A program made the translations under genes and the position numbers. A stretch of 64,000 nucleotides of DNA from Escherichia coli (lineage in GTDB: Bacteria; Pseudomonadota; Gammaproteobacteria; Enterobacterales; Enterobacteriaceae), in assembly GCF_013315695.1 (NCBI RefSeq), contig NZ_CP054353.1; one strand, 5' to 3'. The notes below the pieces were generated by a model, which was given only the letters and a program-made list of their open reading frames with translations, was not told the origin of the DNA and made no database searches. The first letter of the stretch is position 1. Each line of letters starts with the position of its first letter. Shown here in pieces: positions 9,858-22,700 of this stretch.

Positions 9858-10343
9858 ATGAAAACCATTTCACATAATTCCACCACATCTTCTGTTTCCG
9901 TAACCGCTGCATCAGGGAATGACCAGCCTCAGTTGGTTGCCACCCTCGTCCCTGATGAACAGCGCATCAGCTTCTGGCCGCAGCACTTTGGCCTCATTCC
10001 ACAGTGGGTGGCCCTGGAGCCCCGTGTCTTCGGCTGGATGGACCGTCTGTGTGAAGACTACTGCGGTGGTATCTGGAATCTGTACACCCTGAACAACGGC
10101 GGGGCATTTATGGCACCCGAACCGGATGACGATGATGACGAAACATGGGTACTGTTCAATGCCATGAACGGTAACCGCGCTGAAATGAGCCCGGAAGCCG
10201 CCGGCATTGCCGCCTGTCTGATGACGTACAGTCATCACGCCTGCCGTACGGAGTGTTATGCCATGACGGTTCATTATTACCGTCTGCGGGACTACGCCCT
10301 GCAGCATCCGGAATGCAACGCCATTATGCGCATCATCGACTGA
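9858..10343 (+). CDS. anti-restriction protein (ArdB/KlcA-like, YfjX/YafX family)
   Basis: 161-aa ORF with acidic stretch PEPDDDDDETW; conserved position upstream of RadC-like gene. Confidence 0.7.
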   Translation: MKTISHNSTTSSVSVTAASGNDQPQLVATLVPDEQRISFWPQHFGLIPQWVALEPRVFGWMDRLCEDYCGGIWNLYTLNNGGAFMAPEPDDDDDETWVLFNAMNGNRAEMSPEAAGIAACLMTYSHHACRTECYAMTVHYYRLRDYALQHPECNAIMRIID

Positions 10344-12795: not shown

Positions 12796-13293
12796 CTTTT
12801 GCACCAGAACCAGTGAAGATCACTCACCCGATTTCACTTCCCTGACGTCAGCCTGAACACGGCTGGCGTTTTCATTTATAAACAGAAAGGAAAAATGATG
12901 ATGTCAGATACCACACTCTCCCGCCCGGAGGTGGTCAGCGGGCATACGGACGTTATCTATTCCACCTCAGTCTGCCACATTCTGGCTGTACGAAAGAGTA
13001 CACTGTTGCCAATCGACACAATTATCCGGCATCAAGTAAGCGATATCAGTTAACCGATATAGATGGGGAAGATGCTTTTATCCGGATTGGTTCTATCGCG
13101 ATGGTGCGAGTACCACTTGATGCAATGGAGCCTGTCGAGGAAGATGACGAGTAACAGAGCTCGGTATCTCAATCAGGACCTGATTGTCCTGGTTCGATGC
13201 CGAAAACCAGTGATTTTTCGTGTTGGTATCTGTGTTGGTATAGGATGGTGTTGTTTATTATTAACAATTTTAAATCATGAGGTTAAATCGCAT

Positions 13294-13316
13294 GTTTGAG
13301 TCCGGTCTTCGCACCA
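13294..13316 (+). repeat. tRNA-Leu (leuX-type) 3'-end-like sequence, probable island att remnant
   Basis: gtttgagtccggtcttcgcacca resembles the 3' end of a tRNA-Leu gene (GTTCGAGTCCGGCCTTCGGCACCA from memory); no upstream tRNA body. Confidence 0.4.
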
Positions 13317-13704
13317 CATCGTATGCAAATCGAGTCGCTCAAGGGCGGCTTTTTTTGTACCTGTGTTTTCACTACTTTGTTTGCATGTAACGCTGATAAT
13401 CTAAGAACTTCGGAAGCCCCATTTCCATCAATGATGTTCATTCATCATCCTGAAAATTAAGTAGATATAAAACTTCATTGCCTTGGTCTAATGGCACAGA
13501 AATAGATTGCATTTGGCGAGTGGCATTCTTAGTGCGTCGTTGTTTAGTCATGAAACGATGCGTAAAATTGCTGATTTTATGTGTCAAAGTCCCGCAACCG
13601 GAGATGGCCTTACTTCAATGATCAACCACTATTGACGTATCCTTTTAATATCTTGATTCAATTCAGCAGGTTATCGTCCAAAGTACAGCGAAGAGAGAGA
13701 AAAG

Positions 13705-16596
13705 ATGATTGGTACAACACCTTATCATGCGAAATATTTTGCGCATGAACTTTCCATTCTTCATTCAAACAATGGGGTGGACCGTCTGTCTCAATCGCTG
13801 TTTGATGCAAGCGTAGATCTAAACCCTCATCAAATTGAGGCGGCTCTTTTTGCTATCGAAAATCCGCTAAGCAAAGGTGTTGTGCTTGCCGATGAAGTTG
13901 GTTTGGGTAAAACCATTGAAGCTGGACTAGTGCTTTGCCAGTTGTGGGCTGAAAGAAAACGTAAACTGTTGATCATTTGTCCTGCTTCACTGCGTCGCCA
14001 ATGGGCGAGCGAGTTACAGGAAAAGTTCAATCTACCTTCTCAGGTGTTGGACGCGAAAATGTATAGCCAGCTTCAAAAAGAAGGGATCCATAATCCCTTA
14101 AATAATAAATCGATCACTATTATGTCATACCACTATGCTGCTCGGTTAGAAGAGAAATTGGTGGCTGAAATGTGGGATCTGGTTGTTATCGACGAAGCCC
14201 ATAAACTGCGTAATGCTCATCGAGAAAGCAACAAAATGGGGCAAGCGTTAAAGCGTGCGCTTGATGGGCGGAAGAAATTACTACTGACCGCAACGCCTTT
14301 ACAGAACTCGTTGATGGAACTGTATGGCATGTCGACGCTTATAGATGAACATACCTTCGGCGAAGTTAAAGCGTTCAGAAAGCAATATATGCAGGCAGAT
14401 AGCGATATTGCGGAGTTGAAGGGGCGATTGTCGCGTTTTATCAAACGAACTCTACGCAAGAATGTGCTGGAGTATATCAAGTATACAGAACGTAAAGCGA
14501 TCACTATTCCTTTCTATCCGAGCGAACAGGAGCAGGATCTTTATGAACGCGTACAAAAATTGCTTGAACGTGAGGATAGCTATGCCTTACCAAAACGACA
14601 CCGGCATCTGACGGGGCTTATACTCAGAAAACTACTTTCCTCAAGTACGAAAGCCGTATTGAATAACTTGCAGATCCTTAAGACTCGTTTAGAAAGGTTA
14701 AAGCTGGAAGGTATCGTTGAAGATGATATGGACATCATCCAACAGATCATAATGGATGATGATCTTGAAGATGACATCGTTGAAGATGCCGAATCAGTAG
14801 CGCCAGATACAGAGTGCAAATCTGTGGATTCAGATGCGCTTCAGGCAGAAATCAATGAGCTGGAATCACTCATTGTTAAAGCAGAACAGATTGGCACTGA
14901 TACCAAATCAAAAGAGTTGCTTTCTGGCCTGGAGCAAGGTTTTGCACAGCTTGCCGAAATGGGGGCTGCAAAAAAAGTCATCATCTTCACGGAGTCGATG
15001 CGAACTCAACAGTACCTTGCACATTTTCTGGAAAACAATGGCTACCAGGGAAAAGTAGTAACCTTTAGTGGCACAAACAATACACCGCAGGCAAACAAGA
15101 TCTACCAGCAATGGCGCGAGGAATATCAGGGATCTTCTCGTATTACCGGGTCGGCGCAAATTGATAAACGCTCGGCTTTGATCGACCACTTCAAAGATCA
15201 TGCTGAAATCATGATAGCTACAGAAGCTGCAGCTGAAGGGGTGAACCTGCAATTTTGTTCGCTACTGATCAATTACGATTTACCCTGGAACCCACAACGC
15301 ATTGAGCAGCGTATTGGACGTTGTCACCGATACGGGCAAAAATTTGATGTGGTTGTTATTAACTTCCTCAATCAGCGAAACCAGGCCGATCAACGCGTTC
15401 TTGAACTCTTAACTGAAAAGTTCAGCCTGTTTGATGGCGTGTTTGGCGCATCGGATAGTGTGCTTGGCAGCATAGAAAATGGTGTGGATTTTGAAAAAAG
15501 GATCCAGTCAATTTATGAGTCATGCCGTACCCCCGAGGAGATAGAGCTGGCTTTTGAAAGGTTGCAGAAAGAGCTGGAAGATGAAATCAATCTCAAGATG
15601 CAGAAGACGCAAGAACAGTTGCTTGAGCATTTTGATGAAGATATTCACGATATCCTTAAAATAAGGCTTGATGAAGCTCGGGAGCGCCTGGATAAAGTCG
15701 GTCGTTGGTTTTGGGCCGTGACCTGTCAGCAGCTCAAACAATATGCTGATTTTGATCATGAGCATCATCGTTTCACTTTACGTGAATCAGTCAATGAACT
15801 GCCTGTCGGGCAGTACCAGCTGTTGCGCAAAGATGGCAGGCAAAATAGTGCGTTACAAATGCAGGATCACCACAGTTTTGCATATCGGATCAATCATCCA
15901 CTGGGTGAGTACGTCATTGACGGAGCCAAAGCCCAGGAGACGAAAACAGCTGAAGTCATCTTCGATTACAGTAACCACACAACGAAAGTTTCGGTGGCTG
16001 AGCAGCTGAAAGGGCAATCAGGATGGTTAACACTAAATTTGCTTACTGTTGATGCGTTTAACAGGCAGCAATTTTTAGTCTTTACCGCGAAAACTGACAA
16101 CGGACGTGTGGTAGATGGTGAAGCTTGTAAACGTCTGTTCAACTTGTCTGCAATAACCAACGAAAAGCTGGATAATTCGGCAAGTTTAGATGCATTACCT
16201 GATGACTTGATCTTACTCAAGAACAGGCAAATTGACGCCAGGCTTGCAGAAGTTTTGGAGCAGAACAATGTCCTTTTTGAAGCGGAAAGAGATAAGCTGG
16301 AAAAATGGGCTGAAGACATGATCTTTGCGGCGGAAGAAGCATTACGCGATACCAAAATGCAAATCAAGTCGTTGAAGCGAGAAGCCAGGCTGGCGCAATC
16401 GATCGAAGAACAAAAGCAAAACCAGGAAAAGCTTAAGCTCCTGGAACGGCAGCAGAAGCGCCAACGTATGGAAATTTTTGACATTGAAGATGAGATCGCC
16501 GACAAGCGGGATGAACTCATCAGTGCCCTTGAAGAGCGGATGAAGCAAAAGACGGATATCACCGAGCTGTTTACCATCCGCTGGAAAGTTATTTAA
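13705..16596 (+). CDS. SNF2-family helicase-like ATPase with C-terminal coiled-coil region
   Basis: Motifs in translation: LADEVGLGKTIEAG (Walker A), VVIDEAHKLRN (DEAH-like), LLLTATPLQN, INYDLPWNPQRIEQRIGRCHRYGQ (motifs V-VI); C-terminal ~350 aa rich in E/K/Q heptad-like repeats. Strong RBS aagagagagaaaag before ATG. Confidence 0.85.
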   Translation: MIGTTPYHAKYFAHELSILHSNNGVDRLSQSLFDASVDLNPHQIEAALFAIENPLSKGVVLADEVGLGKTIEAGLVLCQLWAERKRKLLIICPASLRRQWASELQEKFNLPSQVLDAKMYSQLQKEGIHNPLNNKSITIMSYHYAARLEEKLVAEMWDLVVIDEAHKLRNAHRESNKMGQALKRALDGRKKLLLTATPLQNSLMELYGMSTLIDEHTFGEVKAFRKQYMQADSDIAELKGRLSRFIKRTLRKNVLEYIKYTERKAITIPFYPSEQEQDLYERVQKLLEREDSYALPKRHRHLTGLILRKLLSSSTKAVLNNLQILKTRLERLKLEGIVEDDMDIIQQIIMDDDLEDDIVEDAESVAPDTECKSVDSDALQAEINELESLIVKAEQIGTDTKSKELLSGLEQGFAQLAEMGAAKKVIIFTESMRTQQYLAHFLENNGYQGKVVTFSGTNNTPQANKIYQQWREEYQGSSRITGSAQIDKRSALIDHFKDHAEIMIATEAAAEGVNLQFCSLLINYDLPWNPQRIEQRIGRCHRYGQKFDVVVINFLNQRNQADQRVLELLTEKFSLFDGVFGASDSVLGSIENGVDFEKRIQSIYESCRTPEEIELAFERLQKELEDEINLKMQKTQEQLLEHFDEDIHDILKIRLDEARERLDKVGRWFWAVTCQQLKQYADFDHEHHRFTLRESVNELPVGQYQLLRKDGRQNSALQMQDHHSFAYRINHPLGEYVIDGAKAQETKTAEVIFDYSNHTTKVSVAEQLKGQSGWLTLNLLTVDAFNRQQFLVFTAKTDNGRVVDGEACKRLFNLSAITNEKLDNSASLDALPDDLILLKNRQIDARLAEVLEQNNVLFEAERDKLEKWAEDMIFAAEEALRDTKMQIKSLKREARLAQSIEEQKQNQEKLKLLERQQKRQRMEIFDIEDEIADKRDELISALEERMKQKTDITELFTIRWKVI

Positions 16597-16616
16597 TTGA
16601 TTTGAAAGAGAAAATA

Positions 16617-19600
16617 ATGAGTAAGTACAACGAATTAGTTAAGAAGCTAAAAGAAATTTTTCAGATTGATCGACCAGAACTGGATTTCGGTATTTATCGT
16701 ATTTTAAATGCGCGTGCTGATGAAATTAACGACTATCTGGATAATAAGCTGAAGGCCAAAATCCAGTCTGCGCTGGCGGATGCAGGAAATGCCAATAAAT
16801 CAGAATTAGAACATCAGTTGCAACTGACAATAAAAGCGGCAACTGATGCGGGTGTAGACCCTGCTGATAGCCCAAAAGTACAGGAGCTTAAAAAGCAACT
16901 GGCGGCTATGGCATCCGGAGCAAATGAGCATGAAAATGCAGTATTTTCCCATCTGCTCACTTTCTTTTCGCGTTATTATGACAACGGCGATTTTATCAGC
17001 AAACGCCGTTATAAAGGTAATACCTACGCCATCCCCTATTCTGGCGAAGAAGTGATGTTGCACTGGGCAAATAAGGACCAGTACTACATTAAAAGCGGTG
17101 AAAACTTCGCTAATTATTCGTTCAAATTAGAAGACGGTCGTAAAGTTAGCTTTAAATTGCTCGCAGCGGACACAGCAAAAGATAACCGTAAAGATAATGA
17201 ATTAGATCGCTGCTTTGTACTTATTGAGCCACATGTTCGTACCAAAATTGATGAAGAAGGCGATGAGTACGAACAAGAATATAAGCCAGTAGAAGTGGTG
17301 AAAAACTCATCTGTGGTGGACGGTAAACTCGTTGAAACAGAAGAGTTAGTTATTCACTTCGAATATAAGGCAATGAAAAAGGGCACTAAGCAGGATGCTT
17401 TAGTACAGTCCGCCATTTCAACAATTCTGGCAGATAAAACAGTTCAACAGCATTGGGTTGATCTTGCTAAACGTGCGCCAACAGAAAAGAATCCGTCACG
17501 TACAGAGTTGGAGCGTCACCTTACAACTTATACCCAGCGTAATACAGCAGACTACTTTATCCATAAAGATCTCGGTGGTTTTTTAACGAACGAACTGGAT
17601 TTTTATATTAAAAATGAAGTAATGAATCTCGATAATGTGCAAAATGCAGAAGTGTTTGCCAATGTTGAGAAACAATTGCGCATGATTCAATGTTTGCGTG
17701 CTGTTGCGCTGGAACTCATTACATTTTTGGCACAAATTGAGAATTTCCAGAAAAAACTTTGGACTAAGAAGAAGTTTGTTGTTGGGCATGAGTATCTTGT
17801 GTCACTTTCAAATCTATCAGATTCGCTTTACGATAAAATTCGAACTAATAAAGGGCAACATGATGAATGGGTTGAGCTTTATGCTGTAAATAAAATTCCT
17901 GGATATTCATTTCCATTCACAAAAGATTTCTTGTATAAAAATAATGGTATGATATTGGATACAAAATATTTTGATCCGTCATTTAAGGAGGTTTTTTTAA
18001 CAGAGTTAACTAATGTTGACGATAATTTAGATGGTCTCTTAATTAATTCAGATAATTATCAGGCCATTAATTTTTTGGAGGGGCGGTATAAGGACTCAAT
18101 AGACTGTCTTTATATTGATCCTCCGTATAATACTGCGGCTTCAGAAATTTTATATAAAAATGAATATAAGCACAGCAGCTGGAATTCATTAATGTATGAA
18201 AGGATATCTAAAAGCTATAATTTACTGAAAATTTCTGCAATTAATTTTACCGCGATAGATCATGCGGAATTATATAATCTTGGTAAGATCAAGGATGAAA
18301 TCTATGGAGAACAAAACAGGATAGCAGTTGTTACTGTTCAGCATAATCCTAAAGGGCGTAACCAGGCAAAGTTCTTTTCTGAAAATACTGAGTATATGTT
18401 AGTATATGCTAAAGATTTTAATGCTGCTAACTTTAACTCTGTAGCTATCGATGAGGATGTGCTTTTAACATTCACAGAACAAGATAATATAGGCCGTTAT
18501 CGTTGGGAAAACTTTATTCGTGCAAGAACAAGTTGGTCCAGAGCAAATAGACCAAATAACTGGTATCCTTTATACGTCTCTTCCGACTTAAAATCAATTT
18601 CTGTTGATTATGTAGATGGGTATATCGAAGTATATCCTACAACTAAACAGGGGGATTTTTCGTGGAAAAATATTAAAGAATCATTTGTTGAATTAAATAA
18701 AGATAATTATTTTAAAGCTGTAAATGAAAATGGAGAAATAAAAATCTATCATAAATATAGGGAGCAGCAAGTCTTTAAAAATCTTTGGATTGATAAGAAA
18801 TATCAGTCTGAGTTTAATGGTACAAATTTACTGAAAAACATACTTGGACAATCACTATTTGATTATCCGAAATCATTATATGCAGTACAAGATGCAATCA
18901 AAATGTCGACACCACACAATGGTATTGTATTGGACTATTTTGCAGGTTCAGGGACAACTTCTCATGCAGTAATAAACCTTAATAATTCAGATAATCTCTG
19001 TATGAAATTTATCAATGTTGAAATGGGTACTCATTTCAATACAGTAGTTATTCCAAGATTGAAGAAAATTGGATATTCAAACTTATGGAAACAATGTAAA
19101 CCAATCGGTAAACCTCAAAAAATGACTATCAAGTATTTGAAACTTGAAAGTTATGAGGATGCTCTTAATAATATACAATTACGAAGTTATTCATTGCATC
19201 AGGATATTTTCGACATTTTGGTGGAAGATGTAAAATCAGAGTTTGCTCTTAAATATATTTTTGAAAATGAATTATTTTATTCACTATTAAATACTGATAA
19301 TTTCAAAAAACCATTTAACTACGAAATGGATATTGCGACGGATTCCGCCGGTGCCACTGAGCGTAAAAACATCGATTTAGTTGAAACTTTCAATTATCTC
19401 ATTGGCTTACATGTGAAATCCATCGAATCTGATATCGCACGTGGCTATGTGCGTATTGAAGGAACGCTGCCAACAGGCGAGCGTACCCTTATTCTGTGGC
19501 GCGATTGCGACAAGATCGGTTATGAAGAATTGAATAAATATGCCAACCGATTTGATTTGTATGCAAAAGAAAACACGTTCGACGTTATCTACATCAATGG

Positions 19601-19721
19601 CGATCATAACTTACCTACCGCCTTTACCGTTGATGAAGAAGACGGCGAGATTGTTCGTAGCCTGAAAATTCGCCAGATCGAACCTGAATTCTTGAACCTG
19701 ATGTTTGCGGAGGAGGTTTAA
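16617..19721 (+). CDS. Mod-like amino-methyltransferase (beta-class, DPPY) with ~500-aa N-terminal domain of unknown function
   Basis: ORF 16602..19721; preferred start ATG 16617 (RBS gaaagag). DCLYIDPPYN (motif IV) precedes VLDYFAGSGTTSHAV (motif I) by ~270 aa, the order seen in Type III Mod enzymes. Stop overlaps SD of next gene. Confidence 0.85.
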   Translation: MSKYNELVKKLKEIFQIDRPELDFGIYRILNARADEINDYLDNKLKAKIQSALADAGNANKSELEHQLQLTIKAATDAGVDPADSPKVQELKKQLAAMASGANEHENAVFSHLLTFFSRYYDNGDFISKRRYKGNTYAIPYSGEEVMLHWANKDQYYIKSGENFANYSFKLEDGRKVSFKLLAADTAKDNRKDNELDRCFVLIEPHVRTKIDEEGDEYEQEYKPVEVVKNSSVVDGKLVETEELVIHFEYKAMKKGTKQDALVQSAISTILADKTVQQHWVDLAKRAPTEKNPSRTELERHLTTYTQRNTADYFIHKDLGGFLTNELDFYIKNEVMNLDNVQNAEVFANVEKQLRMIQCLRAVALELITFLAQIENFQKKLWTKKKFVVGHEYLVSLSNLSDSLYDKIRTNKGQHDEWVELYAVNKIPGYSFPFTKDFLYKNNGMILDTKYFDPSFKEVFLTELTNVDDNLDGLLINSDNYQAINFLEGRYKDSIDCLYIDPPYNTAASEILYKNEYKHSSWNSLMYERISKSYNLLKISAINFTAIDHAELYNLGKIKDEIYGEQNRIAVVTVQHNPKGRNQAKFFSENTEYMLVYAKDFNAANFNSVAIDEDVLLTFTEQDNIGRYRWENFIRARTSWSRANRPNNWYPLYVSSDLKSISVDYVDGYIEVYPTTKQGDFSWKNIKESFVELNKDNYFKAVNENGEIKIYHKYREQQVFKNLWIDKKYQSEFNGTNLLKNILGQSLFDYPKSLYAVQDAIKMSTPHNGIVLDYFAGSGTTSHAVINLNNSDNLCMKFINVEMGTHFNTVVIPRLKKIGYSNLWKQCKPIGKPQKMTIKYLKLESYEDALNNIQLRSYSLHQDIFDILVEDVKSEFALKYIFENELFYSLLNTDNFKKPFNYEMDIATDSAGATERKNIDLVETFNYLIGLHVKSIESDIARGYVRIEGTLPTGERTLILWRDCDKIGYEELNKYANRFDLYAKENTFDVIYINGDHNLPTAFTVDEEDGEIVRSLKIRQIEPEFLNLMFAEEV

Positions 19722-19723
19722 GA

Positions 19724-22700
19724 ATGGCTAAAAAACCGACCACCGGTAAAGCAGTTAAAAAAGAGACTAACAGCAAGCTGAGCTTTCATAAACAACTGGT
19801 TTTAAACCGCTTTATGTTCCATTTTTTCAAAGATGGCACATTGCAAGGTTTGAAGAATCGGTTAGGCGAGGATCGCTTTGAAGGCATCCATGAAGATGGC
19901 CAAAGCTTGTTCTTCCATGAGCTGAGTAACTATTTATTCGAGGTCGATCTAATCGATCTCGATGAACTGCGTCGTTACGATCTCAATATCGTGCAGCACT
20001 GGCAGCAGATAACCGAGCACCGTAATCGTAAAGAAGACACTGTGCTGAACATGAAATATTTTCAGTACTTGTCGCTTCTGTTTACCGAGATCTACCTGGA
20101 CTGGTACTTCAATCGTAAACAGCAATTACTCGATGGGCTAAATAACGAGCTGGCAGCATACAATGCTGAAAATGATAAAACAGCAAAAGACCGGGCTAAT
20201 CAGTTCAAATCATATGTTCTGGATGATTTGAATAAATTGGCATACTGGAACGCTACTGGTTCTGGTAAGACACTGCTATTACATGTCAATATTTTGCAAT
20301 ATTTACATTATTTCCAGAACGGTAATAGCCATCATTATCCGGATAAAATCATCCTGCTTACGCCGGATGAACGCCTGTCGAAGCAACATTTAGATGAACT
20401 GGAAAACTCAGGGTTTACCCAATACCAGTTGTTCGATAAGAGTAAATCAGCGCCCTTCAAAGGCACGATTGAAGTCATTGATATCAATAAACTTGATGAT
20501 AAAATGGGCGACAAAACTGTTGCCGTTGAGGCATTTGAAGGCAACAATCTGGTCCTGATTGATGAAGGGCATAAAGGCACAGGAAGTGCTGCTGGTGCCT
20601 GGATGCGCCGTCGTGACAAGTTAACTCGTGACGGATTTGCGTTTGAATATTCAGCAACTTTTGGCCAGGCAGTAGCCGGTGGCAATAATGTGGAGGCAGT
20701 TGAAACAGAAATTCAGAAGAAAAAAGCAAAGCTGCTTTTTGAAACAACTGCCTTAGGCAAATTGAGCGAAGAAGAGTTAGCACAAATAGCATTAACCAGC
20801 GAAGAACAACGTGATGCGCGTATTCAGGCGACGCGAGAAGTCTATGGGAAATCGATTCTGTTCGATTACTCCTATAAATTCTTCTATGAGGATGGTTATG
20901 GCAAAGAATCACTGATTCTTAACCTTAATCCGCAAGATGATAAAAAAGATGAGCGTCGGTATGAGTATTTTACCGCGTGTTTGCTCAGCTTTTATCAGCA
21001 ACAATATTTATTCAATAAAAATAAAGAAAAATTAAATGAATTTAATATCGAAAAACCGCTGTGGGTTTTTGTCGGTAATTCTGTAAGTGGTGAAGATTCA
21101 GACATTCACGCAGTATTGCGTTTTTTAGCATGGTTTTTAAACCACGAAACGCAGGCAAAAGCGTGGATTAACGATCTCATTAAAAATAAAGCGCGAATCC
21201 TCGATACCAAAGAGCGTAACATTTTTGAAAATCGCTTTACTGCACTAATGAACGCTCCGGAAGATATCTACGCAGATATTCTTTCTCGCTTGTTTAACAC
21301 CACTCACTCTGGTCAGCGACTGCGAGTTCTGAATTTAATAGGCAGTAAAGGTGAACTGGCATTACAGGTTGGTGAGGCCGAACCGTTTGGCCTTATCAAT
21401 ATTGGTGATGCACCGTCTCTTTACAAAATGTGTGAAGAGGATACGACATTTGATTATCAGAGAGATGATTTTGCAAAGTCGCTCTTTCATACGTTAAATG
21501 ACAAAGACTCGCGACTACATATTTTGATCGGCTCGCGAAAATTTACTGAAGGCTGGAGCAGTTGGCGCGTCTCAACGATGGGATTGCTCAATATGGGCCG
21601 TGGAGAAGGTTCACAGATCATTCAGTTATTTGGCCGTGGCGTTCGCCTTAAAGGTCGCAATTATTCTTTGAAACGCAGTACACCCGGTGAGCGTCCGAAA
21701 GGGTTGCATCTGGAAAAATTAGAGACACTGAATGTATTCGGTGTACGTGCCGATTACATGGCAACCTTTAAACAATACCTGGAAGATGAAGGGATTACGC
21801 CAAGTGACGAGATCCTTGAGCTGAATTTTGAAACTCGGCCAAATATGCCAGCAACCAGGCTTAAAACACTTAAGCTCAAAGATGGTTATAAAGATAATCA
21901 AAGACTCGGCTTTAAACGTGTCTATTTTCCCGAATTGTATGAAGTTCCTGCTGATTTTCAGGGGAAAATTAAGCAGCCGCATATTAAGCTGGACCTATAC
22001 CCGAAACTTGAGTCGATTGATACCAGCAGAAAAGGGGAAAATACTCCGGTTAACGTGCGTAATGAAGCGAAGTTAGATTATAAAATCATTAGTGCGTTTG
22101 ATTTTGATCGGCTTTATCTCGCCATTCAGAATTATAAACTACAACGCGGCTGGTCAAATTTACGTGTGGATAAACAACGTTTGATCGACTTTTGTACCGG
22201 TAAGACAAAGATCGGAAATAGTTGGTATACCCTTTTGATTCCAGCTTCAGAACTTGAGATTAAGCAATATGCAGATATTGCTAAGCAGGAAGATATTATG
22301 CTTCGTCTGCTGACTGATTATACTGATCGCTTTTACAACACATTGAAAAATGCTTATGAAGGTCAGTTTTATGAAGTCACGCAGGTGAAAGAAGATGATC
22401 CTGGTATGATCAAAATGTACCATTTCGAGATCGAAGAAACTGATGATGGGTTGGCATATGCCAGTCGGCTGGAACAATTACAACAATTGGTCATCGACGG
22501 CGAAATCGGTAAAGCAAAATCCTGGAGTGCATCCGGGATGGTTGCTATTACCTTTGATAAACATCTCTATTATCCACTTCTTTCGATTGAAAAAAATGCC
22601 AACATACCGCTAAAAATGCGACCGGCAGCACTGGGTGCATCAAGTGAGATTACTTTTGTCCATGATCTTCAGTCTTTTGTTGATTCGACAAAAGGGCAGA

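What the first reader, a model, noticed from the sequence alone, without database searches (positions are those of the whole stretch)
16617..18100. ~500-aa N-terminal domain of unknown function fused to the methyltransferase
The catalytic DPPY motif sits about 500 residues into the protein; Type III Mod enzymes normally have a short N-terminus. The upstream region (e.g. YRILNARADEINDYLDN..., FFSRYYDNGDFISKRRYKGNTYAIPYSGEEV...) has no motif I recognise. It could be a sensor, an interaction module for the SNF2 protein, or a second enzymatic domain.
Basis: seen in the sequence. Interest (0 to 1): 0.6.

Follow-up and report, generated by a model that had tools for sequence, protein, structure and literature searches.

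The report
Conserved unknown N-terminal module, Type III-like methylase
The methyltransferase of an E. coli restriction-modification-like gene cluster really does carry a roughly 470-residue N-terminal region that matches nothing known, but this region is the standard, very highly conserved build of a large, uncharacterised group of Type III-like systems and most likely serves as a scaffold for the partner restriction enzyme rather than as a one-off fusion.

Summary
The ORF at 16617-19721 encodes a 1034-aa protein. DPPY lies at residues 501-504, and only residues 495-804 match a Pfam family (N6_N4_Mtase).

The first ~470 residues match nothing in Pfam, NCBIfam, PHROGs or PDB sequences. A confident AlphaFold model (pLDDT 87.6) finds no fold relative in the PDB or in an AFDB sample.

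It is not a fusion artefact:
- The same architecture occurs in 148 complete E. coli genomes.
- It occurs in at least 583 species, bacterial and archaeal.
- It defines 2342 50%-identity clusters.
- PADLOC's Type III methyltransferase model PDLC03646 covers it end to end.

The N-terminal and C-terminal regions are more conserved than the catalytic/TRD core. N-region divergence tracks that of the downstream 1126-aa Res-like helicase-nuclease (r = 0.95) but not the core (r = -0.10). Res is always present. The SNF2 gene is missing from 19 of 80 loci, at least 6 with ample flanks, with no loss of N-region conservation.

Best reading, which is inferred: a constant scaffold for Mod dimerisation and Res docking in an expanded Type III-like R-M clade. 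An SNF2-only docking role or a second enzyme is disfavoured. A sensor role is untested.

This is a new variant of a known kind, of moderate interest.

The parts
13705..16596 (+). SNF2-family ATPase, 963 aa, DrmD-like. Walker A GLGKT is at aa 66-70 and DEAH at aa 163-166. It is the first gene of the cassette and is an accessory that is frequent but not universal in the family.
   Evidence: Pfam SNF2-rel_dom 1.3e-36 and Helicase_C 2.7e-19. PADLOC DrmD 4.4e-199. NCBIfam DISARM_DrmD_b scores 667 bits, below the curated cut-off of 950. A homologue is present in 61 of 80 related loci.
16617..19721 (+). Long Mod-like DNA methyltransferase, 1034 aa, beta-class, N6/N4 type. This is the whole gene.
   Evidence: PADLOC MTase_III PDLC03646 matches full length. 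PDB sequence matches to EcoP15I Mod and two other Mod-type methyltransferases (6k0w, 7dsu) begin at aa 469 or later.
16617..16976 (+). N-region part 1 (aa 1-120). Short helices followed by a long antiparallel helical hairpin (H34-77, H86-120). It is moderately conserved. The hairpin is missing in the distant Rhodothermus-type subfamily.
   Evidence: AlphaFold secondary structure. Conservation 0.40-0.72. The hhalign alignment with the 899-aa Rhodothermus Mod starts at about query aa 102.
16977..17384 (+). N-region part 2 (aa 121-256). A beta-rich subdomain preceded by the most conserved stretch of the protein (aa 116-160, FFSRYY..GDFIS.RRYK..YAIPY.GEEV.LHWAN.DQYYIKS). This stretch and aa 187-193 are predicted with low confidence.
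17385..18026 (+). N-region part 3 (aa 257-470). A helical subdomain with conserved motifs NT.DYFIHKDLGGFL..ELDFYIKNEV and FLAQ.E.FQKKLW.KKKFV. It is shared with a second PADLOC Type III MTase family. The loop near aa 423-436 tolerates insertions.
   Evidence: PADLOC PDLC03638 matches aa 237-469 (4.5e-21). Conservation 0.71-0.82. A DUF559 domain is inserted in this loop in P0114.
18027..19091 (+). Catalytic MTase core with a variable target-recognition region. DPPY is at nt 18117-18128, the TRD spans about aa 561-750, and motif I FAGSGTT is at nt 18939-18959.
   Evidence: Pfam PF01555 at aa 495-804. Motif positions. The TRD is the least conserved segment, 0.21-0.40. Its divergence is uncoupled from the rest of the protein (r = -0.10).
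19092..19721 (+). Conserved acidic C-terminal region (aa 826-1034, net charge -14) plus the stop codon. It has no Pfam or NCBIfam match.
   Evidence: Its divergence correlates with that of Res (r = 0.86).
19724..23104 (+). Long Res-like subunit, 1126 aa. It is an SF2 ATPase (GSGKT at aa 179-183, DEGH at aa 280-283) with a C-terminal PD...DxK nuclease motif (P1023-D1024, D1043-P-K1045). It starts 2 nt after the Mod stop codon.
   Evidence: PADLOC REase_III PDLC03654 matches full length. Pfam ResIII 2.7e-07. The motifs are conserved in 56-58 of 59 homologues. A homologue was found downstream of Mod in all 68 loci that contain both the Mod C-terminal region and downstream sequence.

Best explanation
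The ~470-residue N-terminal region is the constant, family-defining scaffold of the modification subunit in an expanded clade of Type III-like restriction-modification systems, here called long Mod plus long Res. Most of these systems also carry a DrmD-like SNF2 ATPase. The variable middle of the protein (the TRD inside a beta-class DPPY methyltransferase) reads the DNA sequence and methylates it. The conserved N-terminal and C-terminal regions do not set specificity. They most likely hold the complex together in two ways: the long helical hairpin contributes to Mod-Mod dimerisation, and the hyper-conserved, poorly modelled loops (aa 135-149 and 187-193) together with the helical subdomain form the docking and communication surface for the Res helicase-nuclease. 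Specificity can therefore change by TRD replacement without disturbing the assembly. Shown here: architecture, conservation pattern, co-occurrence and co-divergence. Inferred: dimerisation, Res docking and restriction activity.
For: (1) The N region (aa 116-160, 300-340, 360-400) and the C region are more conserved than the catalytic/TRD core. (2) Across related loci, identity of the N region to the E. coli protein correlates with that of Res (r = 0.95, rho 0.91, n = 61) and of the Mod C-terminal region (r = 0.86). It does not correlate with the MTase core/TRD (r = -0.10), and correlates less well with SNF2 (r = 0.75, rho 0.57). (3) A Res homologue lies downstream in all 68 loci that contain both the Mod C-terminal region and downstream sequence. 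Even the distant Rhodothermus Mod pairs with a distant Res. (4) The most conserved segments are the only parts modelled with pLDDT below 50 in an otherwise confident model. This is typical of segments that become ordered only on binding a partner. (5) pTM rises from 0.71 for the N region alone to 0.84 for the full-length protein, which suggests the N region packs against the rest of Mod. (6) The N subregions are net acidic (pI 5.2-6.0), which argues against a large non-specific DNA-binding surface. (7) Precedent from EcoP15I: the short Mod NTD forms the Mod2 dimer interface and the CTD contacts Res (PMC4490356). (8) Res carries conserved ATPase and PD...DxK motifs, so the cassette looks like a working R-M system.
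Against: There is no direct evidence of any contact. No multimer prediction or model coordinates were available. The co-divergence measure uses identity to a single reference and is not corrected for phylogeny, so genes that are simply co-inherited would also correlate. Low pLDDT in conserved loops could equally mean DNA or ligand binding. Short basic motifs (RRYK, KDNRKDN, KKLW.KKKF) could touch DNA. No family member has a published biochemical characterisation that I could find.
Confidence: 0.5

Rival explanations
1. The N-terminal region is the docking module that recruits the SNF2 ATPase to the methyltransferase.
For: An SNF2 gene is adjacent in 61 of 80 loci (55 upstream, 6 directly after Res) and on Klebsiella IncF plasmids. 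In other systems (DISARM class 1, ARMADA), SNF2 helicases also pair with large methyltransferases.
Against: 19 of 80 loci have no SNF2 homologue. At least 6 of these have 3.5 kb or more of flank on both sides (for example L042 Marinicella and L077). The Hymenobacter and haloarchaeal plasmid copies also show no annotated SNF2 gene in the 8-9 kb flanks viewed. In the SNF2-less loci the full N region is kept, and no 15-residue window loses conservation. SNF2 divergence tracks the N region less well than Res divergence does (rho 0.57 against 0.91).
Confidence: 0.15
2. The N-terminal region is an independent functional domain: either a second enzyme, or a sensor or allosteric switch that gates restriction. 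For example, it might detect a phage protein, a nucleotide signal or a DNA end.
For: Many polar residues are invariant in the family (R119, D125, N152, D154, Q155, Y157, K159, D312, H316, E326, E375, K386, Q414). Conservation exceeds that of the catalytic domain. The fold has no known relative, so a new activity cannot be excluded.
Against: There is no profile or fold similarity to any enzyme or sensor family. In the distant Rhodothermus subfamily, which shares aa ~105-470 at hhalign probability 100, residues D125, N152, D154, Q155, H316 and E326 are all replaced, while aromatic and hydrophobic positions are kept. That pattern fits an interface or core better than an active site, although it rests on a single sequence. 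Sensors in defence systems usually evolve fast, and this region evolves slowly.
Confidence: 0.15
3. The N-terminal region is an extra DNA-binding clamp or track that holds the enzyme on DNA beside the recognition site or during translocation.
For: There are conserved basic motifs in low-confidence loops (R130-R131-Y-K133, K188..R191-K192) and the motif K379-K380-L-W-x-K384-K385-K386. Type III enzymes must stay on DNA during long-range communication.
Confidence: 0.15
4. The long ORF is an artefact: two genes joined by a sequencing or assembly error, or a decayed pseudogene.
For: One metagenomic contig shows the N region as a separate 437-aa ORF followed 249 nt later by a 527-aa MTase ORF (L093).
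Against: The sequence is 100% identical over 11 kb in independent complete genomes, and the cassette is present in 148 E. coli genomes. Uninterrupted ORFs of more than 950 aa were recovered in 65 of 80 species' loci. Sequence conservation points to strong purifying selection. The full-length AlphaFold model has pTM 0.84.
Confidence: 0.01

Closest known systems
Classical Type III restriction-modification (EcoP15I/EcoP1I Mod and Res; PDB 4ZCF)
   Same: Both have a beta-class amino-methyltransferase with DPPY (motif IV) before FxGxG (motif I) and a TRD between them. In both, mod is immediately followed by res. In both, Res is an SF2 ATPase with a C-terminal PD-(D/E)xK nuclease. By sequence, EcoP15I Mod is the best PDB match to the catalytic part (3.1e-25).
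   Different: Mod here is 1034 aa against 644 aa. It has about 470 residues before the MTase fold, where EcoP15I has a 47-residue NTD, and a 209-residue acidic C-terminal region against about 105 residues. Res is 1126 aa and has no PDB match by sequence. Most members add an SNF2 ATPase gene. Nothing is known of its recognition site, stoichiometry or cleavage mode.
PADLOC/REBASE-derived Type III clusters MTase_III PDLC03646 and REase_III PDLC03654
   Same: The window's Mod and Res match these profiles end to end (1551 and 2306 bits). The family is therefore already catalogued as Type III R-M, N-terminal region included.
   Different: These are sequence clusters only. They give no domain annotation and no function for the N-terminal region, and SNF2 is not part of the model.
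DISARM class 1 (DrmD-DrmMI-DrmA-DrmB-DrmC)
   Same: An SNF2 helicase gene most similar to DrmD sits directly upstream of a large adenine-methyltransferase gene in a defence island.
   Different: There are no DrmA, DrmB (DUF1998) or DrmC (PLD) genes. The methyltransferase is PF01555 (DPPY), not pfam13659. The SNF2 protein scores below the NCBIfam DrmD_b cut-off.
ARMADA (ArmA SNF2 / ArmB PglX-like MTase / ArmC YprA helicase)
   Same: An SNF2 helicase is paired with a large methyltransferase that has a long region preceding its catalytic motifs. ARMADA is also found on E. coli islands at tRNA genes.
   Different: ArmB is a gamma-class NPPW, YeeA/PglX-like enzyme. ARMADA requires a YprA-like helicase. 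Neither is present here, and PADLOC gave no PglX or DrmMI hits to the N region even at E<=10.
Rhodothermus-type shorter 'long Mod' subfamily (for example WP_014072507.1, 899 aa), possibly corresponding to PADLOC PDLC03638 (816-position model; correspondence not tested)
   Same: It shares aa ~105-470 of the N region, the MTase core and the C-terminal region (hhalign probability 100, 772 aligned columns; PDLC03638 matches aa 237-469). It is also followed by a DEAD/DEAH helicase gene.
   Different: It lacks the long N-terminal helical hairpin. Overall identity is 24%, and the polar residues invariant in the window's family are replaced.

Membership tests
Type III restriction-modification system | Mod is a beta-class N6A/N4C methyltransferase: motif IV (DPPY) lies N-terminal to motif I (FxGxG), with the TRD between them. 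| tested here: met
   DPPY at aa 501-504 and FAGSGTT at aa 775-781. Pfam PF01555 at aa 495-804. EcoP15I Mod matches at 3.1e-25. The variable segment lies at aa 561-750.
Type III restriction-modification system | Res has SF2 helicase-like ATPase motifs and a PD-(D/E)xK endonuclease domain at the C-terminus. | tested here: met
   Pfam ResIII/DEAD at aa 167-313. GSGKT, DEGH, and PD(1023-1024)...D1043-P-K1045 are conserved in 56-58 of 59 homologues. This is motif-level evidence only; no fold or activity was tested.
Type III restriction-modification system | mod and res are adjacent and co-directional in one operon. | tested here: met
   There is a 2-nt gap with a GGAGGAGG ribosome-binding site. 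Res is downstream of Mod in all 68 informative loci, although 26 of them have 0.4-2.8 kb inserted between the two genes.
Type III restriction-modification system | Mod has the compact architecture of characterised enzymes: a short NTD of about 50 aa, MTase plus TRD, and a CTD of about 100 aa. | tested here: not met
   About 470 aa precede the MTase fold and 209 aa follow it, compared with NTD aa 14-60 and CTD aa 539-644 in EcoP15I.
Type III restriction-modification system | Mod2Res1-2 complex; hemimethylation of a short asymmetric site; ATP-dependent cleavage that requires two inversely oriented unmodified sites. | not testable with these tools
   This needs a methylome, biochemistry or a structure. 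No publication on this family was found.
DISARM class 1 | Core triplet of DrmA (helicase), DrmB (DUF1998) and DrmC (PLD). | tested here: not met
   The cassette has only three genes. The third matches only REase_III in PADLOC. The flanking genes in the RefSeq record are unrelated.
DISARM class 1 | DrmD SNF2 helicase. | tested here: inconclusive
   PADLOC DrmD PDLC02619 scores 4.4e-199 but covers only aa 31-684. NCBIfam DISARM_DrmD_b scores 667 bits against a cut-off of 950.
DISARM class 1 | DrmMI adenine methylase of the pfam13659 type. | tested here: not met
   Pfam gives only PF01555. There were no DrmMI hits in PADLOC.
ARMADA | YprA-like helicase plus a PglX-like (NPPW, gamma-class) methyltransferase. 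| tested here: not met
   The methyltransferase here is DPPY, beta-class. No YprA/DUF1998 gene is present.
Hma system | HmaA SNF2-nuclease, HmaB DUF1156 methyltransferase and HmaC DUF499 ATPase. | tested here: not met
   HmaA is only a secondary hit for the SNF2 protein (5.5e-58). No DUF1156 or DUF499 proteins are present.

The most novel reading that the evidence does not exclude
The N-terminal region is a previously undescribed fold that acts as the regulatory hub of a distinct three-enzyme defence machine. It would couple sequence recognition by Mod to two different ATP-driven motors (Res and the SNF2 remodeller). Its hyper-conserved disordered loops would work as a switch that licenses cleavage only on unmodified DNA. 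On this reading the 'long Mod/long Res/SNF2' clade is mechanistically separate from classical Type III enzymes.
Probability: 0.2. Interest if true: 0.65.

Novelty: new variant of a known kind. Interest (0 to 1): 0.45.

Why it matters
This clade is widespread. It occurs in at least 583 of about 100,000 species genomes, in phyla from Pseudomonadota to Planctomycetota, Bacteroidota, Bacillota and haloarchaea. It is also present in 148 complete E. coli genomes and on conjugative Klebsiella IncF plasmids. Nearly half of its methyltransferase, and much of its Res, has no annotated domain, no solved relative and no published biochemistry. The N-terminal region is the most conserved part of the system, so it is probably central to how the complex assembles or is controlled. 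Working this out would extend the Type III paradigm, which rests essentially on EcoP1I/EcoP15I. It would also explain why an SNF2 motor is so often attached, and it would give Pfam-type resources a new domain family. The modular layout, with a constant N/C scaffold and a swappable TRD, may also be useful for engineering specificity.

Tried and rejected
- **Profile and sequence searches of the N region.** Pfam on the single sequence and on a 16-sequence alignment, NCBIfam, PHROGs, and PDB by phmmer and by profile gave nothing beyond the protein's own PADLOC clusters.
- **Fold searches with the confident N-region model.**
  - Foldseek against the PDB: best E 0.38, TM below 0.13.
  - All were treated as generic helix or beta-sandwich matches.
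- **PD-(D/E)xK nuclease idea for aa 125-147 (GD...EVK).** Rejected. The lysine is M147 in the window protein, the segment is modelled as coil, and no nuclease fold was found.
- **HKD/PLD idea for H316-K-D.** Rejected, because the spacing is wrong.
- **DISARM, ARMADA, Hma and BREX membership.** Rejected on gene content and methyltransferase class.
- **Phase variation.** No simple-sequence repeats lie in or upstream of mod.
- **Upstream HTH_17 regulator.** This small gene is seen in other loci, but there is no intact copy directly upstream of SNF2 in the window.
- **Stand-alone or differently fused copies of the N region.** Only two exceptions were found: one possibly split metagenomic gene and one in-frame DUF559 insertion. 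The top 150 representatives all carry the region at the N-terminus of proteins that are about 1000-1150 aa when full length.
- **Literature.** Searches by accession and by keyword found no paper on this cassette.
- **Not possible here.** Multimer prediction, access to model coordinates or PAE, and viewing the weaker hits (E between 1e-3 and 1e-30) of the representative search.
Full report
**Where the window comes from.** The window is E. coli chromosome. Bases 13000-24000 are 100% identical to NZ_OZ547117.1 and to other complete genomes. The region lies in a CP4-like island next to the nan/fim genes. Its G+C content is low: 40% over the cassette and 35.7% for the methyltransferase gene, against 48% for the whole window. 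This indicates horizontal acquisition.

**The cassette.** Three tightly packed + strand genes form it:
- an SNF2 ATPase (13705-16596, 963 aa);
- the methyltransferase in question (ATG 16617 to stop 19721, 1034 aa), starting 20 nt after the SNF2 stop;
- a 1126-aa helicase-like protein (19724-23104), starting 2 nt after the methyltransferase stop, behind a GGAGGAGG ribosome-binding site.

**The observation.** It is correct.
- DPPY lies at aa 501-504 and motif I (FAGSGTT) at aa 775-781.
- Pfam recognises only aa 495-804 (N6_N4_Mtase).
- PDB sequence matches (EcoP15I Mod and two other Mod-type methyltransferases) begin at aa 469 or later.
- In EcoP15I Mod the N-terminal domain is aa 14-60 and the MTase domain starts at aa 62.
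- In the AlphaFold model of the present protein the MTase fold begins near aa 471.

The unexplained region is therefore aa 1-470 (nt 16617-18026). There is also an unannotated acidic C-terminal region, aa 826-1034.

**Not an artefact and not a one-off fusion.**
- The cassette is present at 80% or more coverage in 148 of 5426 complete E. coli genomes.
- The N region alone retrieves 2342 50%-identity cluster representatives at E<=1e-3, and 868 at E<=1e-30. In all of the best 150 it sits at the N-terminus, and the full-length ones are about 1000-1150 aa.
They span Pseudomonadota, Chlorobiota, Planctomycetota, Verrucomicrobiota, Bacteroidota, Acidobacteriota, Chloroflexota, Bacillota, Spirochaetota and others.
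- Plasmid copies exist on Klebsiella IncF plasmids and on haloarchaeal plasmids.
- PADLOC's Type III methyltransferase model PDLC03646 covers the protein from residue 1 to 1034, and REase_III PDLC03654 covers the downstream protein.

The long N-terminus is therefore the normal build of an already catalogued but unstudied Type III-like cluster.

**What the region looks like.** AlphaFold2 with an 89-sequence alignment gives confident models: N region alone pLDDT 87.6 and pTM 0.71, full length pLDDT 86.8 and pTM 0.84. The model has three parts:
- aa 1-120: short helices plus a long antiparallel helical hairpin (H34-77, H86-120);
- aa 121-256: a beta-rich subdomain;
- aa 257-470: a helical subdomain.

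No relative was found by any method:
- Pfam on the sequence and on an N-only alignment, NCBIfam, PHROGs;
- PDB by sequence and by profile;
- Foldseek against the PDB, best E 0.38;

The only outside match is a second PADLOC Type III family, PDLC03638, to aa 237-469. An hhalign comparison shows that an 899-aa Rhodothermus marinus plasmid methyltransferase shares everything from about aa 102 onward (probability 100) but lacks the helical hairpin. That gene is also followed by a helicase gene. The core of the N region is therefore older than this family, and the hairpin is a lineage-specific addition or loss.

**Conservation.** The N region is the best-conserved part of the protein. Mean column conservation is 0.74-0.87 for aa 121-160, 0.77-0.82 for aa 301-340 and 0.71-0.77 for aa 361-400. 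The TRD (aa 561-750) scores only 0.21-0.40. The two segments the model cannot place (pLDDT below 50: aa 135-149 and 187-193) fall inside strongly conserved sequence. This combination is typical of segments that become ordered only on binding a partner.

**Gene context.** I ran tblastn with the window's proteins against 80 loci from different species.
- A Res homologue lies downstream of Mod in all 68 loci that contain both the Mod C-terminal region and downstream sequence.
- An SNF2 homologue is upstream in 55 loci. It lies directly after Res in 6 loci (Pasteurellaceae, Cardiobacterium, Neisseria, Moraxella).
- SNF2 is absent in 19 loci, of which at least 6 have 3.5 kb or more of flank on both sides. 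The Hymenobacter and Halobacterium plasmid copies also show no annotated SNF2 gene in the 8-9 kb flanks viewed.
- The SNF2-less loci keep the whole N region. Comparing conservation in 15-residue windows between 54 SNF2-positive and 11 SNF2-less proteins shows no segment that relaxes.
- Identity to the E. coli protein across loci correlates between the N region and Res (r = 0.95, rho 0.91) and between the N region and the Mod C-terminus (r = 0.86). It correlates less with SNF2 (r = 0.75, rho 0.57) and not at all with the MTase core/TRD (r = -0.10).

The correlation measure is crude because it uses one reference and no phylogenetic correction. The contrast between Res and the TRD is nevertheless large. 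It fits a constant N/C scaffold that co-evolves with Res while the specificity module is exchanged.

**The partner proteins.**
- Res has the Walker A motif GSGKT, DEGH, and a C-terminal P1023-D1024...D1043-P-K1045 motif. These are conserved in 56-58 of 59 homologues. This is the Type III Res layout of ATPase followed by a PD-(D/E)xK nuclease.
- SNF2 is closest to DISARM DrmD (PADLOC 4.4e-199) but scores below the NCBIfam DrmD_b cut-off, 667 against 950 bits.
- The cassette is not DISARM: it has no DrmA, DrmB or DrmC, and its MTase is PF01555 rather than pfam13659.
- It is not ARMADA: it has no YprA helicase, and ARMADA's MTase is NPPW, PglX-like.
- It is not Hma, which uses DUF1156 and DUF499 proteins.

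**Interpretation.** The best-supported reading is that the N region is the constant scaffold of an expanded Type III-like Mod subunit. By analogy with EcoP15I, where the short NTD intertwines to form the Mod2 dimer and the CTD contacts Res, I infer two roles. The helical hairpin contributes to dimerisation. The hyper-conserved loops and the helical subdomain dock and communicate with Res. These contacts are inferred, not shown. Confidence is about 0.5.

The rival readings fare as follows:
- **SNF2-only docking** is disfavoured by the SNF2-less loci.
- **A second enzyme** is disfavoured by the lack of any fold or profile match. In addition, the polar residues invariant in the family (D125, N152, D154, Q155, H316, E326) are replaced in the Rhodothermus subfamily, while aromatic and hydrophobic positions persist (a single sequence).
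- **A large DNA-binding surface** is disfavoured by the net negative charge of all three subregions, although short basic motifs could touch DNA.
- **A sensor or allosteric role** is untested. The slow evolution of the region argues against direct recognition of fast-evolving phage factors.

**Novelty and interest.** The kind of system (Type III-like R-M) is known, and the family is already clustered in PADLOC. The N region itself has no domain entry, no structural relative and no literature that I could find. It defines a widespread clade whose Mod and Res are each far larger than the EcoP15I paradigm and which usually carries a third, SNF2, motor. I rate this a new variant of a known kind, with interest 0.45.

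Noticed in passing
window 16617-19721 (aa 135-149 = nt 17019-17063; aa 187-193 = nt 17175-17195): The only low-confidence stretches of the AlphaFold models (pLDDT below 50) coincide with some of the most conserved sequence in the whole protein: YAIPY.GEEV.LHW and AKDNRKD. This suggests partner-induced folding. The partner is unidentified.
   Followed up: partly
L010, L013, L017, L019, L021, L029, L034, L038, L061, L067, L071, L082 and others; L002-L004; L089: In 26 of 68 loci the Mod-Res junction carries 0.4-2.8 kb of inserted genes. Examples are an AAA_15/AAA_21 ATPase plus DUF4276 pair, a PADLOC PDC-S02 PD-DExK protein, and a nucleotidyltransferase pair. The junction looks like a hotspot for embedded defence genes inside the operon.
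   Followed up: partly
plasmid hits H22-H54, e.g. NZ_AP027966.1 8900-9202: A fragment of about 100 aa that is 72% identical to Res aa 654-754 occurs on roughly 190 Escherichia, Klebsiella and Salmonella plasmids, usually annotated as 'DUF1158 domain-containing protein'. It is apparently a widely disseminated remnant of a related Res gene.
   Followed up: no
L046, L049, L050, L051, L059, L072: In Pasteurellaceae, Cardiobacterium, Neisseria and Moraxella the SNF2 gene lies directly after Res (gaps of 3-38 nt) rather than before Mod. The three genes are therefore shuffled as a unit.
   Followed up: partly
P0114 / L091 2750-4761 (Methylovulum MAG): A DUF559/MTES_1575 endonuclease-like domain is inserted in frame in the variable loop of the N region (equivalent to aa ~425-435). 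The same loop carries long insertions in other members (P0133, P0141).
   Followed up: partly
L093 162-3307 (metagenomic contig): The N region is encoded as a separate 437-aa ORF, followed 249 nt later by a 527-aa MTase ORF. This is either a genuine split or a frameshifted pseudogene.
   Followed up: no
window ~23765-24500 (RefSeq locus L001 24766-25494): Immediately downstream of the cassette, on the opposite strand, lie pseudogene remnants of a phosphorothioated-DNA-binding restriction endonuclease and of an HNH endonuclease. The site has evidently hosted other defence genes.
   Followed up: no
window ~28752-29354 (fimB) and ~30909-31463 (fimA): In the identical RefSeq record, fimB and fimA are both flagged as pseudogenes with internal stops. 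The window's fimB ORF is 161 aa.
   Followed up: no
window 13041-13704: Related loci carry a small HTH_17 gene that overlaps or abuts the SNF2 start (L002-L005; an unclassified HTH regulator gene at the same position on the Klebsiella plasmid L087). The window has only an annotated HTH pseudogene fragment about 550 nt upstream and no intact small ORF at that position. The putative regulator seems to have been lost here.
   Followed up: partly
window 9858-10343: The same island encodes an annotated antirestriction protein and a CbtA/YeeU toxin-antitoxin pair upstream of the R-M-like cassette.
   Followed up: no
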